A DNA stretch of 60,996 nucleotides, filler included, from Hausera hauseri (lineage: Eukaryota): assembly GCA_046269625.1 (NCBI GenBank). It is 12 parts of 12 records of this genome, joined end to end, with 100 filler letters (N's around TTAATTAATTAA, not from the genome) between each part and the next. Parts side by side here need not be neighbours in the genome. Positions count along the whole stretch, not along the records: positions 56,937 to 60,996 come from JBJURY010787201.1; 11 more parts are not named here. One strand, written 5' to 3'. This document shows, in pieces, positions 57,123 through 60,996 of this stretch (position 1 is the stretch's first letter; every line of letters starts with the position of its first letter). The notes beneath the pieces were generated by a model, which was given only the letters and a program-made list of their open reading frames with translations, had not been told where the DNA came from and did not search any database. A program made the position numbers and the translations under genes.

Positions 57123-58901
57123 TGTGGTACCCACGGTGGCCGATGCCCTCTGGCCCATTTGGTTGGGCACAGAACGGCCTCCGTTGCCGCCGCGTCGGAC
57201 CTCTAGTCGGGCCCGATCACCCGCCTCGAAAATCTTATAACAGTACGTGGTTAAAACTGTTCCCACCGATAAAAATACTTTAAATACCTAATCTTACTGT
57301 TCAGAGAAAGCAATCGACGTTTGATATTCGACATTTATCGTTCTAATTTCGACAACGAATGTCAAACTCTGCTGTCAATTATTTACGACAAATTCAACGA
57401 ATAAAAACTGATGCTATTGACAAAAGTTATCGACCTTTGAAATCATATTTGGCGCCATCATCCGATACGATCAAGGATACGTCGAATCAGTATTACAATC
57501 CCAATCAGTTTATGTATTTGCCAGATGATTCGCGGATACCGCTTTCTGACAACGATAGCATCATGTTCTACCAAATGTAGTTCCGTCGAATAATGGATCC
57601 AGACCGGAATCCAGAGCAGACTATTCCATCATTTTTCCGTCGAAGAAAAACGCAAACGGTCCGAAAATAACCTATGGATCTCAATCACAGAATTTAGAAC
57701 GATACAATGGGACTCTTCGGTCCGATAACGGGGTACATTGTCCAGGAATTCCATCGACGATTGCCTTTGCTGGTAGTCATGAGTATGATGGAGAAAGTGA
57801 CGATAGTGGGAAAGGAGCAATCGAAGTCGATTTCAGACTACAACAGCAATTAAACCTGAGAAACTATCCTACAATGCCTTTATCTCACTACTCCACACCA
57901 ACAACAATATTTGGTCACGTGATCAACAACAATTACTACAAATTCCAGTCCCTTAATAACAATCCCCGAACATACGACAATCGGCTACTGCACACGAATA
58001 CCGGAACTCTACCCAATTCCCGTCGAGTAGCATCACCATCTTTAGTGTCTGCAACGCATAATTGCCAGTGCTTCAGACTGCCGAAAGATGACGTCATCCA
58101 AATCAAACAGGACGACAACAATATCCACGTGTCTACGTTTGCCAACCACTGTCAGTATTTCCGATCGATGACTAATGACGATGACGGCCACAATTTATGT
58201 AACGAACAGTTTTTGTCCGCGAAGGAAAATTCTGTCACACATTGGTGATCGATTTCATACAAATATTCGGCCTACAATAGACATTGGTAAATCCGTCAAT
58301 AAAAGCAACATTTGTTTATCGGATAAAACGGTTCCAGATTGAAATGCTTATTCACCAGAATTGGATAATTAACACGAAGATGTTAGGTTTCAACATTAAC
58401 ACCTATTTTTGTGCACCTATATGTATAACTTTTTATTCCGAGTTTTACATGGTTCTGTGTAAGTACAATAAACCTATCACTATAAATATTTGCTTGGTCT
58501 GTAGGGTTTATAAAAAATTTTGTTTAAATAATTAATAAATACTTTTTCAACTTTTTGAATTTTAAATTATGATCTTCATCTTGGAATTGTTGTATACCTC
58601 TTCATTGGATACAATTTTATCGTTGAAGGTTGGCAAAGTTTTAATTTACATTTCGAAAAAAGATTTCGAAACGATGTGTATCAATGTTTTAATTGGAAAG
58701 TCTGTAGTCCGAAACCTAATTTTAAGCATCTATTTTTTACAGCGATACAGAACATGAGTCCCAATATCTATTATAATAAAAAATTGTTTTGTTTCACGTT
58801 GAAAATATTACAAATTTGGTTGAACTGTTCCTATCTAAAACTCGTAAATCTGAGCGAGGAATTTATCAACAATCTCCAGGATACTATTCGTGAAAACAAC
58901 A
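57123..58901 (+). repeat. Putative LTR with GC-rich head and ~1 kb host-like coding cargo
   Basis: TGTGGTACCCAC head; ORFs 57359-57580 and 57874-58248; AATAAA near 58535; ends ...AACA-AT-TGGTGCCAGAA (PBS-like at 58904). Confidence 0.55.
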
Positions 58902-58989
58902 ATTGGTGCCAGAAAAATGTAACGTTTCATTCTATTGTAAATATACGGTCTGTACAAAACTATTGTTCTATATTTGCATGGTTATTGTT

Positions 58990-59622
58990 TCATTTACAAA
59001 TGGAAAATGATTAAGGATTTTCGAAGTTATCTCACTTGCCGAATTGTTCAACCCGCACAAGGGTTACCGTGTCGACGACTCAATCGTTGTAAAAATCAAC
59101 ATCAATGCCGACGCACCCCATAAAATCGATAGGGGCTCCAATCGACATACCGCTTTTGTTGGTTTAAAGAATCGAAGTGCAACGTGTTACTTGAATTCGT
59201 TATTGCAAACGTTGCTTTTCACAAATAAACTGCGCAAAGCCGTCTACATGATGCCGACTTACAGTGACGAACCGAGTGTCCGTGCTCCATTGGCACTTCA
59301 GCGAGTTTTCTAGGAGTTACAGGTCAGCGGCAAATCTGTTGGAACAAAAAAACTAACGAGAAGCTTCGGTCGAGAAACGCTGGACTCATTTATGCAGCAC
59401 GATGCTCAGGAGTTTTGTCGTGTGTTAATGGACAACATGGGAAATAAAATGAAGGGTACCACGGTGCAAAACACAATTCCTTCATTGTTCTGTGGTAAAA
59501 TGTTGTGTATATAAAATGCAAACATGTACCGATAGAATCGACAAAAGAGAAAAACTTCTGACATTCAGTTAGATGTGAAAGGCAACAGAAATATTTACAA
59601 AGCATTCAAGGAGTACATTTCC
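58990..59622 (+). pseudogene. USP7: Processed USP7 fragment (end of MATH domain plus N-terminal catalytic Cys box)
   Basis: [91 protein letters not shown]; no introns. Confidence 0.93.
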
Positions 59623-60520
59623 GTCGTCATGTTGGGCAACAAAACTGGAAGATCACGTGGATTTGGTTACGTGAAATACAAAAATTCCGACTATGTTGAT
59701 CTTGTTCTGCAAACGAAGCCTCACATCATTGATTAAAAAGAAGCGAACGTTCAGCAATGTAATGTAAATATGAAAGGAAAAAACAGAAGTCTAAAAATAT
59801 TTAGTGGAATAAGCTTAGATCTGTATGCTGATGGTATCTAACAGTTCGTTGAACAATTCGGCAAAGTAACCGATATAAACCTCATGATGGATCAAACGAA
59901 AAATCGACATCGAGGATTTGCATTTGTTGGATTTGAAGATAAAAACTTTGTTAAAAAGTTAATATGCATTACGTTGTAATAAATTCCAAACAAGTTGAAC
60001 TCAAGGCTATGGAACCATCAAGTTTTTCCAAGAAGTTGAGTGCTTCATCGGATCAGTCAAATATAGTAAATAATAACTACCGAAAAATGAACCTTATTGC
60101 ACAAGTCAGAATGCATTCTATACAAGGAATCATGCACCTTCACTGTGACATACGACTCGAGTTAATTATCCACAAGTTATATGGCCAGCCCAAGTGGGAA
60201 CGTAAAATTGGATGTGCCCGACACAAACTTGGAGTACTCATCTTGATCATCAATTCTGGCCGGCTATAAATTTGTCACATAACGGCTGGTACCGACCAGT
60301 AGCATCTCCTTCGCCATGGTCAACGCAGAACACAGCATGGTCGCCATTGACTGTATCGAATCAAACGCCCGTTCAACAATCCAAAATGCAAACATGCACC
60401 AATCAACTATCACAAAATTGGCACAGTACAAGAATTCAGTATCTATCTACTCAATCGACTACAGTACCTAATTGGACAACTCAACAAGGATTAGGTGAAT
60501 ACGAATCGCTACCAAATAAA
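59620..60520 (+). pseudogene. Processed tandem-RRM protein fragment (DAZAP1/Musashi/hnRNP-A-like)
   Basis: VVM..KTGRSRGFGYVKY...[45 protein letters not shown], then a low-complexity tail. Confidence 0.88.
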
Positions 60521-60808
60521 AATGATAAATCCGCTCAAAAAGGTTTGTTCTGTAATGTATTGCAACCTTCAATAAATGAATCTACGGTAAACAATGAAAT
60601 TTATAGTAATTGACTCTACGGAAATAATAAAGATTTGGAAAACAGCTATTGTGCCAGAGTCTATTTATCCTTTTGACATCAACACTGACCTACTTTTTCT
60701 CAAATACTATGACTATCGATCAAAATCCGAAAAGCAATTCATTGGGCCCACTGCGAGAATAATTAAAGGACCTTTAAGGGGGAATTCGGTTACCCCGAAA
60801 TTTGGGAC

Positions 60809-60996
60809 TTGCCGCGGGGAGACTGAGGTCCAGGCCGTCCACCCTGCACCATTGGGTAGGACGGCGCCATTCGTTGCCGCCCCACGACACGCCCCCGGAC
60901 ACACCACTTCTTACCACCTTTTCTTTTTTCTAAAAAACAGGCATTAGCACACAGTAATACATGTAAACACAGCTGCAATCCATAAAATCATCTCCA
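60809..60996 (+). repeat. PPT-like sequence followed by start of another GC-rich LTR head
   Basis: TTGCCGCGGGGAGAC-TG resembles TTGCCACGGGAGGGCGA-TG; CCATTGGGTAGG...CGTTGCCGC is shared with 57155-57192. Confidence 0.5.

What the first reader, a model, noticed from the sequence alone, without database searches (positions are those of the whole stretch)
57123..60996. LTR-PBS-[USP7::RRM]-PPT-LTR: element with only host cDNA inside
Between a PBS-like TGGTGCCAGAA (58904) and a PPT-like sequence (60809) there is no gag/pol, only processed USP7 and tandem-RRM fragments. The flanking LTR heads are related but not identical, implying recombination between subfamilies or a tandem arrangement. It looks like a non-autonomous vector of host sequences.
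Basis: partly seen in the sequence, partly recalled or inferred. Interest (0 to 1): 0.75.

Follow-up and report, generated by a model that had tools for sequence, protein, structure and literature searches.

The report
Retrotransposon packed with host mRNA pieces
A dead jumping-gene copy, probably from a flatworm, holds pieces of host genes where its own genes should be, which is a known copying accident, but it and two relatives also seem to carry different host-gene pieces inside the terminal repeat itself, which is unusual.

Summary
Mostly real, a known kind with an unusual twist. The window is 12 joined contigs; this one ends at 60996. An LTR head interrupts a Tc1 gene at 57123 and a PBS follows at 58904. 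Behind it lie dead pieces of USP7 and flatworm Hrb27C/DAZAP1, fused where both parents share an Ala/Ser-Val, and no gag/pol. That fits LTR-mediated retroposition by template switching (Tan 2016; Bs1). A Gypsy element with CHCC gag elsewhere in the window has the same head and PBS type, so its lineage is the likely helper. The two other heads in the window are followed by different host pieces (a vigilin-like KH domain, a Gli/Zic-type finger). In one run the head is hundreds-fold deeper than the LTR interior. LTR-internal capture may be family-wide, but rests on three copies.

The parts
56937..57122 (+). 5' part of a Tc1-type transposase gene (target site), frame breaks after FSDE
   Evidence: Pfam HTH_Tnp_Tc3_2 E 3.7e-6, 27.5 bits, under the 31.5 cut-off; translation
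57123..58901 (+). Left LTR as a whole, TGT...ACA, 1779 bp
   Evidence: start; end defined by ACA-NN-PBS as in the element at 36853
57123..57230 (+). GC-rich (68%) LTR head, high copy, shared with 16468 and 35804
   Evidence: 33/40 and 26/40 ungapped identity; only these 3 of 7741 TG-start positions reach 26; depth 8480 in bin 57073-57208; GC
57347..58248 (+). Host-like broken reading frame inside the LTR (77 + 229 codons; frame changes near 57577; ends in TGA); parent gene unidentified
   Evidence: 229 open codons, 0 of 500 shuffles; related contigs about 90% alike and an indel polymorphism at 57577; no homolog found
58249..58840 (+). AT-rich (28% GC) 3'UTR-like stretch with AATAAA at 58298, 58467, 58534, 58775
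   Evidence: the UTR reading is inference
58904..58914 (+). Primer-binding site TGGTGCCAGAA, 2 nt behind the LTR end; tRNA-Leu type (label recalled, no call)
58990..59625 (+). USP7 fragment (end of MATH into the catalytic domain, about residues 165-372), with stops and frameshifts
   Evidence: a contig of X1 covers 58590-59245 with 3 differences and so bridges the PBS-USP7 joint
59620..60613 (+). Hrb27C/DAZAP1 fragment: from mid-RRM1 through RRM2 (to about 60050), then a low-complexity tail (inferred same gene)
   Evidence: 58 hits, best 64-66% to trematode proteins; every hit with a species name is a flatworm; tblastn; 135-codon tail frame 0 of 500 shuffles
60630..60745 (+). Tentative second USP7 piece (UBL region, residues about 680-750)
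   Evidence: best tblastn E 0.003, 4 of 120 USP7 queries under E 1; profile domain E 0.013, top hit in the window's six frames; no PDB or Pfam hit
60745..60823 (+). GC-rich high-copy stretch holding two PPT candidates (60776-60784 and 60810-60823)
   Evidence: depth 622 at 60776 and 1700 at 60809; motif
60824..60912 (+). Right GC-rich (66%) high-copy repeat, probable LTR head of another subfamily; not the twin of the left LTR
   Evidence: depth 1800-2670; marginal similarity to the left head
35788..36867 (+). Sister LTR in a tandem Gypsy: PPT, LTR 35804-36855 with vigilin-like KH cargo (about 35964-36436), PBS 36858
   Evidence: integrase before and RT/RNase H after; Pfam KH_1 E 3.7e-7; PDB vigilin E 0.002; CHCC gag at 38515
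16468..17979 (+). Third head, inserted next to a Polinton-like sequence, followed by a dead Gli/Zic-type zinc-finger piece and further broken frames; its LTR end was not found
   Evidence: PDB ZIC3 E 4.9e-6, GLI1 E 9.5e-6

Best explanation
A dead chimera made by the reverse transcriptase of a Gypsy lineage with CHCC gag in a flatworm-like genome. Host mRNAs were packed into the element's particles. During minus-strand synthesis RT left the element RNA just upstream of the PPT, copied USP7, then Hrb27C/DAZAP1, then USP7 again, switching at short shared words, and returned near the PBS, so that host pieces replaced gag-pol. The lineage also takes host mRNA into the LTR. Most likely the strong-stop DNA jumps to the 3' end of a host mRNA instead of the element's R region, copies 3'UTR and coding end, and switches back into the first 100-300 bases of U3. 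This yields LTR = conserved head + host piece + short tail. The left LTR and the right repeat come from different subfamilies, so the contig shows one segment of a composite (tandem or recombined) insertion, not a single normally integrated element. Shown: boundaries, PBS, cargo identities, absence of gag/pol, three heads with three different followers. Inferred: RNA route, switch points, strong-stop jump, helper identity, composite origin.
For: Same head and PBS type in an element with integrase, PPT, gag CHCC, RT and RNase H. All cargo pieces are sense to the element and cut at both ends. The USP7 and Hrb27C homologies overlap at S-V: orthologues read EYVAVETL and DDAVVMMD; A-V is the commonest USP7 dipeptide there, 41 of 94 matched among 120. 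About 630 nt of USP7 and 430 nt of RRM run without an intron-sized gap. In all three LTR-like copies a frame ends in a stop followed by 26-28% GC sequence with AATAAA. X1 depth falls from 8480 to 973, 372, 76 and 14-45 along the left LTR. Known model: PMC5131818; composite insertions: PMC1950507.
Against: No parent gene was seen, so intron loss and nucleotide microhomology are unproven. The left-LTR cargo has no identified homolog. The head at 35804 is found by a profile of the other two only at E 3, and the tails of the two complete LTRs share nothing beyond the PBS motif (53 of 300 shuffles). The 16468 copy has no LTR end in its contig and is followed by an exon-like stretch with splice sites at about 18607-18681, which looks genomic. 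Whether the KH piece is a true mRNA 3' end is unknown. AATAAA is common in AT-rich DNA and belongs in any LTR. The right repeat may not be an LTR head at all. X1 may be the source sample.
Confidence: 0.62

Rival explanations
1. One reading: a self-contained non-autonomous element with two diverged LTRs that moves, or moved, as a unit and spreads USP7::RRM.
For: PBS, PPT-like stretch and a GC-rich repeat in the right order around pure host cargo; weak left-right similarity at homologous starts. Secondary retroposition of such chimeras is documented (PMC5131818).
Against: LTRs are identical at integration (PMC1950507), yet left and right share 46 of 70 gapped columns and nothing after, while cargo differs from its nearest other copies by only about 7-12% (table 8). 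Cargo depth is 16-62 in bins 59113-60744. Only about 70 nt at 27% GC lie behind the PBS, against a 53%-GC leader in the sister element.
Confidence: 0.12
2. DNA-level mosaic: genomic exons of intron-poor genes and pieces of repeats were joined by break repair, deletion or nested insertion, with no mRNA step.
For: One X1 contig matches 58953-59309 at 88% without a break and then diverges upstream; if it is the parent gene, that stretch is a single exon. An exon-like stretch with splice sites follows the 16468 copy. The contigs are dense in decayed repeats.
Against: Every identified piece is coding and in the element's sense. Joints fall inside codon-aligned shared words. In two copies cargo sits exactly between an LTR start and a PBS.
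Confidence: 0.15
3. Assembly chimera: short-read contigs joined wrongly through high-copy repeats, making the mismatch of the two ends, or the whole chain, artificial.
For: Short contigs; three very deep repeat stretches; X1 holds only 0.61 of the sampled words and no listed piece spans the whole stretch.
Against: An X1 contig bridges LTR tail, PBS and USP7 with 3 differences in 656 nt, though X1 may be the source. The USP7-Hrb27C joint lies in low-copy sequence, and the same architecture recurs in two other contigs.
Confidence: 0.08
4. The right end is not PPT plus LTR at 60824 but another boundary: an LTR starting at 60785 behind the purine run 60776-60784, or the end of an LTR plus a tRNA-Lys-type PBS near 60801, followed by the leader of an unrelated element.
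For: Depth is continuous across 60824 (1700 at 60809, 1800 at 60832) and lower at 60776 (622). No loose-end cluster at 60824 among the 6 of 247 rows shown. One contig's loose end at 60811 reads like a Lys-type PBS start (label recalled). Profiles of the left-type heads miss the right repeat.
Against: TGCCRCGGG precedes TG at 14-17 nt here and at both Gypsy 3' ends. The right repeat aligns to the left head from its first base and is the best non-family tile, by one point.
Confidence: 0.25

Closest known systems
LTR-mediated retrocopies of animals (Tan et al. 2016, PMC5131818; read parts 1-4 of 8 of the text plus passages, supplements not opened)
   Same: Partial host mRNA pieces replace internal ORFs; two or more genes are fused; short shared words at joints; no poly(A) tail.
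   Different: There the retrocopy replaces part of the internal ORFs and both LTRs are present. Here the two ends do not match, nearly all internal sequence is gone, and host-like sequence also lies inside the LTR.
Maize Bs1 (as described in PMC5131818 and in passages of PMC13317346; original papers not read)
   Same: LTR element carrying fragments of several host genes fused in one region.
   Different: Bs1 forms an expressed chimeric gene with 1-5 copies sharing switch points; this copy is full of stops and shows no sign of amplification.
CsRn1-clade Gypsy elements of trematodes and insects (PMC2582038, passages)
   Same: The sister element has the CX2HX9CX3C gag motif; the host looks like a flatworm.
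   Different: The PBS is TGGTGYCAGA, not the Trp-type TGGTGA(G/C)CCC; no RT tree was made; the passages read mention no host cargo.
Complex LTR insertions with an internal LTR (Sabot and Schulman 2007, PMC1950507; abstract and Results read); BARE-2 and Veju (passage in PMC13317346)
   Same: Explains neighbouring LTRs that differ, and the shared central LTR at 35804. BARE-2 is a precedent for foreign sequence entering an LTR by template switch.
   Different: In BARE-2 the insert is another retrotransposon, not host mRNA; outer LTRs and TSD cannot be seen here.
Large retrotransposon derivatives (LARDs) and planarian Burro elements (PMC6431247, passages)
   Same: Host or foreign DNA between LTR signals, moved in trans; flatworm Gypsy elements with host-like domains.
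   Different: LARDs are multi-copy families with matching LTRs. Burro domains are part of an intact polyprotein, not dead mRNA scraps.
Yeast Ty1 retrosequences (Derr 1991; Maxwell and Curcio 2007: not read; cited in PMC5131818 and a passage of PMC7175516; details recalled)
   Same: Experimental precedent for LTR-element RT copying cellular mRNA into chimeric cDNA.
   Different: Rare selected events in yeast, not a standing trait of a natural family.

Membership tests
LTR-mediated retrocopy (Tan 2016) | Partial host-gene sequence, cut at both ends, no poly(A) tail | tested here: met
   USP7 residues about 165-372, Hrb27C from residue 39; no A-run at the joints
LTR-mediated retrocopy (Tan 2016) | Host sequence replaces internal ORFs next to LTR-element sequence | tested here: met
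   LTR and PBS on the left; no gag/pol; right side less certain
LTR-mediated retrocopy (Tan 2016) | Introns lost against the parent gene | not testable with these tools
   no genome held; 80 USP7 loci from metagenomes were mostly unbroken and none is known to be this host's
LTR-mediated retrocopy (Tan 2016) | Microsimilarity at switch points | tested here: inconclusive
   protein-level overlap at Ala/Ser-Val from orthologues of other species only
LTR-mediated retrocopy (Tan 2016) | 5' and 3' LTR of the same element on both sides | tested here: not met
   right repeat is not the twin of the left LTR; a twin beyond 60996 is not excluded
LTR-mediated retrocopy (Tan 2016) | Co-transcription with the LTR | not testable with these tools
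   no RNA data were laid
Non-autonomous LTR family (LARD or Bs1-like vector) | PBS behind the 5' LTR | tested here: met
Non-autonomous LTR family (LARD or Bs1-like vector) | PPT directly before the 3' LTR | tested here: inconclusive
   two candidates; motif shared with two Gypsy 3' ends but varies among X1 contigs
Non-autonomous LTR family (LARD or Bs1-like vector) | Internal region present in many copies | tested here: not met
   depth 16-62 over 59113-60744 against 8480 at the head; about three variants at 60159-60303 (one run, 8 of 1463 pieces listed)
Non-autonomous LTR family (LARD or Bs1-like vector) | Target-site duplication | not testable with these tools
   contig ends at 60996
CsRn1 clade (helper lineage) | CHCC gag motif CX2HX9CX3C | tested here: met
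   one match in the window's six frames, at 38515 in the sister element; the finding itself has no gag
CsRn1 clade (helper lineage) | tRNA-Trp PBS TGGTGA(G/C)CCC | tested here: not met
   TGGTGTCAGA and TGGTGCCAGA against the motif in PMC2582038
CsRn1 clade (helper lineage) | RT groups with CsRn1; 4-bp TSD | not tested
   no reference RT sequences were fetched
Complex insertion by template switch (Sabot and Schulman) | Outer LTRs near-identical with flanking TSD, internal LTR different | not testable with these tools
   far end lies outside the contig

The most novel reading that the evidence does not exclude
A flatworm Gypsy lineage whose LTR is a short conserved head and tail around an exchangeable host mRNA 3' part, refreshed by strong-stop jumps onto cellular mRNAs. 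Its hundreds of copies would then carry many different host gene ends, duplicated into both LTRs and left behind in solo LTRs: a retrotransposon counterpart of Pack-MULEs working through U3.
Probability: 0.3. Interest if true: 0.78.

Novelty: new variant of a known kind. Interest (0 to 1): 0.5.

Why it matters
The internal USP7::Hrb27C chimera extends LTR-mediated retroposition to a flatworm-like genome, but is a dead example of a known process. The possible novelty is host sequence inside the LTR in three of three heads seen. If family-wide, it would be a natural, high-frequency record of errors in the first strand transfer. It would scatter host 3'UTRs and coding ends (with their miRNA and small-RNA target sites) through LTRs and solo LTRs. 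It would also define by deletion how little of U3 an LTR needs. All of this can be tested with one long-read assembly.

Tried and rejected
No whole genome is held. Sequencing runs: one holder, X1; no RNA holder listed. Exact scans for the head found 0 loci in viral contigs and 0 in metagenome contigs. Rfam: one chance hit, E 0.23. No tRNA genes in the window. The heads do not fold better than shuffles, z from -1.5 to +1.3. The left-LTR frame: no homolog among longer proteins, no Atlas hit, no Pfam family at E 10. Its one hit among 1.84 billion representatives is the linker of a repetitive trypsin protein, taken as spurious. A protocadherin-tail reading from the DDSGKG word is recalled and unsupported. 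The idea that the PBS is USP7 coding sequence was rejected: homology starts about 80 nt later. An integrase GPY/F remnant before the PPT was rejected: no hit with the window's own integrases; USP7 fits better. A Nup214 identity for the frame behind the PBS at 36858 was not confirmed: no PDB hit, Atlas gives weak beta-propeller look-alikes. Intron test with 80 metagenome USP7 loci: only 2 of 80 were split into separate matches and most look like transcripts or compact genomes, so it was uninformative. A duplicated LTR segment on both sides of the cargo (read-through model): 11 of 300 shuffles, but 14 of 795 window tiles score as high, not supported. No Polinton continuation in the window behind 16468. 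Literature searches for host mRNA inside LTRs (listings only) and for the yeast strong-stop mechanism showed no paper describing this as a family trait. The library lacks most subscription journals, and the supplements of PMC5131818, not opened, could hold such cases. Look-ups of earlier findings by place and sequence were empty.
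Full report
Setting. The window is 12 short contigs joined by N-TTAATTAATTAA-N linkers. The finding fills the last one, 56937-60996, so nothing beyond 60996 can be read, and no genome is held. One public run, X1, holds 0.61 of the sampled words and was laid once as contigs at 80% likeness. It may be the source sample, and its depth is no copy number. The host looks like a flatworm: the RRM piece has 58 hits, best 64-66% to trematode Hrb27C/DAZAP1, and every hit with a species name is a flatworm. USP7 is 62-63% to mollusc and monogenean proteins. This is inference at phylum level.

Left boundary and PBS. A Tc1-type transposase frame (Pfam HTH E 3.7e-6, under the cut-off) breaks after FSDE at 57122, and TGTGGTACCCAC begins at 57123. 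In X1, 84 contigs carry unrelated sequence before 57123 and 38 before 57122, so this is the end of an abundant mobile element. The same head occurs at 16468 (33 of the first 40 bases) and 35804 (26 of 40). Only these three of 7741 TG-start positions reach 26, although a profile of the first two finds the third only at E 3. The copy at 35804 settles what the head is. It lies directly behind an integrase gene and a PPT and directly before ACA-AC-TGGTGTCAGA, a leader, gag, RT and RNase H. So it starts a 1052-bp LTR (35804-36855) shared by two Gypsy units in tandem. The same ACA-NN-TGGTGYCAGA occurs only once more, at 58899. The patterns were drawn from these copies, so their shuffle counts overstate the case. 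The gag behind 36858 has CX2HX9CX3C, the mark of the CsRn1 clade, but the PBS differs from that clade's Trp type (PMC2582038, passages).

Internal region. USP7 homology runs 59029-59634 (PDB E 3.7e-72) and Hrb27C/DAZAP1 homology 59620-60050, followed by a low-complexity tail to about 60613. The two overlap at S-V. USP7 orthologues read EYVAVETL or DYVAVEQL (A-V in 41 of the 94 of 120 that matched), flatworm Hrb27C reads DDAVVMMD, and the chimera reads EYISVVML. That is what a switch at a 6-7 base shared word would leave, but the true parents were not seen. The fusion is in frame yet dead, with five stops between 59311 and 59839 plus frameshifts. A weak third piece at 60630-60745 resembles the UBL region of USP7: best tblastn E 0.003, profile E 0.013 and top of the window's six frames, no PDB or Pfam hit. 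If real, RT went out of USP7 and back into it in order. No gag or pol is left. 'Processed' is likely from about 630 and 430 unbroken coding bases but unproven. One X1 contig matching 58953-59309 at 88% could be an intronless parent exon, and metagenome USP7 loci did not help.

Right end. TGCCRCGGG lies at 60810 and otherwise only before the 3' LTRs of the window's two Gypsy pol genes, 14-17 bases before a TG. Against it: most X1 contigs differ at 60809-60810, depth is continuous across 60824, a second purine run lies at 60776-60784, and one loose end at 60811 reads like another PBS (label recalled). The repeat from 60824 is abundant (depth 1800-2670) but only marginally like the left head: 46 of 70 gapped columns, 3 of 300 shuffles, one point above background, missed by profiles built without it. 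Beyond the head there is no likeness (81 of 300). LTRs are identical at integration (PMC1950507) and the cargo is only about 7-12% from its nearest other copies, so the two ends are not twins. A tandem or recombined composite explains this, and the shared LTR at 35804 shows that tandems occur in this lineage. Cargo depth is 16-62 over 59113-60744, with about three variants where listed pieces overlap (8 of 1463 pieces listed), so there is no sign that this cargo was amplified.

Most of the left LTR is not ordinary LTR. After the 68%-GC head come a broken frame (57347-58248; 229 open codons, 0 of 500 shuffles), a stop, and 590 bases at 28% GC with four AATAAA. X1 depth drops from 8480 at the head to 973, 372, 76 and then 14-76, and other contigs match the frame at about 90%. 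The frame stays unidentified. The LTR at 35804 holds a KH domain instead (Pfam E 3.7e-7; best PDB hits vigilin, E 0.002), then a stop and AT-rich sequence. The head at 16468 is followed at once by a dead Gli/Zic-type finger (E 5e-6), further frames, a stop and AT-rich sequence; no LTR end was found there, and an exon-like stretch follows. The three bodies are unrelated to each other. So 3 of 3 heads have different sense-strand followers, 2 of 3 identified as host genes and 2 of 3 closed by a PBS. The bin 58841-58976 has depth 9968 and 58977-59112 has 852, although single places at 58918, 58933 and 58998 have 38-50. The deep piece may be the LTR tail and PBS or an unrelated short repeat; the output cannot tell.

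Mechanism. Shown: boundaries, PBS, cargo, loss of gag/pol, variable LTR bodies. Inferred: host mRNA packed into particles of the helper, and RT switches at shared words for the internal cargo, as in PMC5131818. For the LTR cargo I infer a jump of the strong-stop DNA onto a host mRNA 3' end and a return into the U3 head. This predicts sense orientation, stop plus 3'UTR, and conserved ends, as seen. The yeast precedent is recalled; the paper was not held. A read-through route predicts a duplicated LTR segment around the cargo, which was not supported. Rivals are a unit vector (0.12), a DNA-level mosaic (0.15), an assembly chimera (0.08) and, separately, another reading of the right boundary (0.25).

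Known or new. The internal chimera works like the LTR-mediated retrocopies of Tan et al. and like Bs1; it fails the twin-LTR test inside the contig and is not shown to be a mobile family. Earlier AI notes of this scan list similar cases in cartilaginous fishes (unchecked), so the base finding is not rare. In the text of Tan et al. that I read, the Drosophila retrocopies replace internal ORFs. The nearest precedent for foreign sequence in an LTR is BARE-2, where it is another retrotransposon (PMC13317346, passage). Four searches listed no paper on host mRNA inside LTRs as a family trait; coverage is partial and supplements were not opened. Verdict: new variant of a known kind, interest 0.5; family-wide LTR capture has probability about 0.3 and would deserve about 0.78.

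Noticed in passing
window 34509-41139: Tandem Gypsy with a shared LTR. Behind the PBS, about 37030-38150 holds host-like broken frames (163 open codons, 0 of 500 shuffles; weak beta-propeller look-alikes) in place of the gag start: a second internal capture, gene not identified.
   Followed up: partly
window 16245-19078: LTR head next to a Polinton-like sequence, followed by a dead Gli/Zic-type finger; an exon-like stretch with splice sites at about 18607-18681; no LTR end found.
   Followed up: partly
window 24965-30159 (-): Gypsy gag-pol about 65% like the 34509-41139 element, with the same PPT motif at 25539 but a different LTR head from about 25521; no cargo recognised in the 557 bases present.
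   Followed up: partly
window 11374-15983 (-): LTR-like element with a PBS-like word near 15772, a gag-like frame and a broken Monjiviricetes-type fusion glycoprotein (Pfam PF24664, E 9e-12 and 1e-13); no RT hit among the frames scanned.
   Followed up: no
window 58841-59112: Very high X1 depth in two bins (9968, 852) while single places nearby have 38-50; source of the deep piece unknown.
   Followed up: partly
window 209-1248 and 52746-56836: Decayed protein-primed DNA polymerase B (Polinton-like) frames.
   Followed up: no
window 23645-24805: Ubiquitin-like frame (Pfam E 1e-19) fused to an unknown tail, behind an unidentified 235-codon frame.
   Followed up: no
window 41240-45719 (-) and 30260-33663 (-): Further gag-like frames, one with a CCHC knuckle followed by long unidentified frames.
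   Followed up: no
window 51050-52222; 33780-34408; 1448-1975; 4197-5068: piggyBac-like transposase piece; tandem repeats with periods of about 31, 63 and 330 bases.
   Followed up: no
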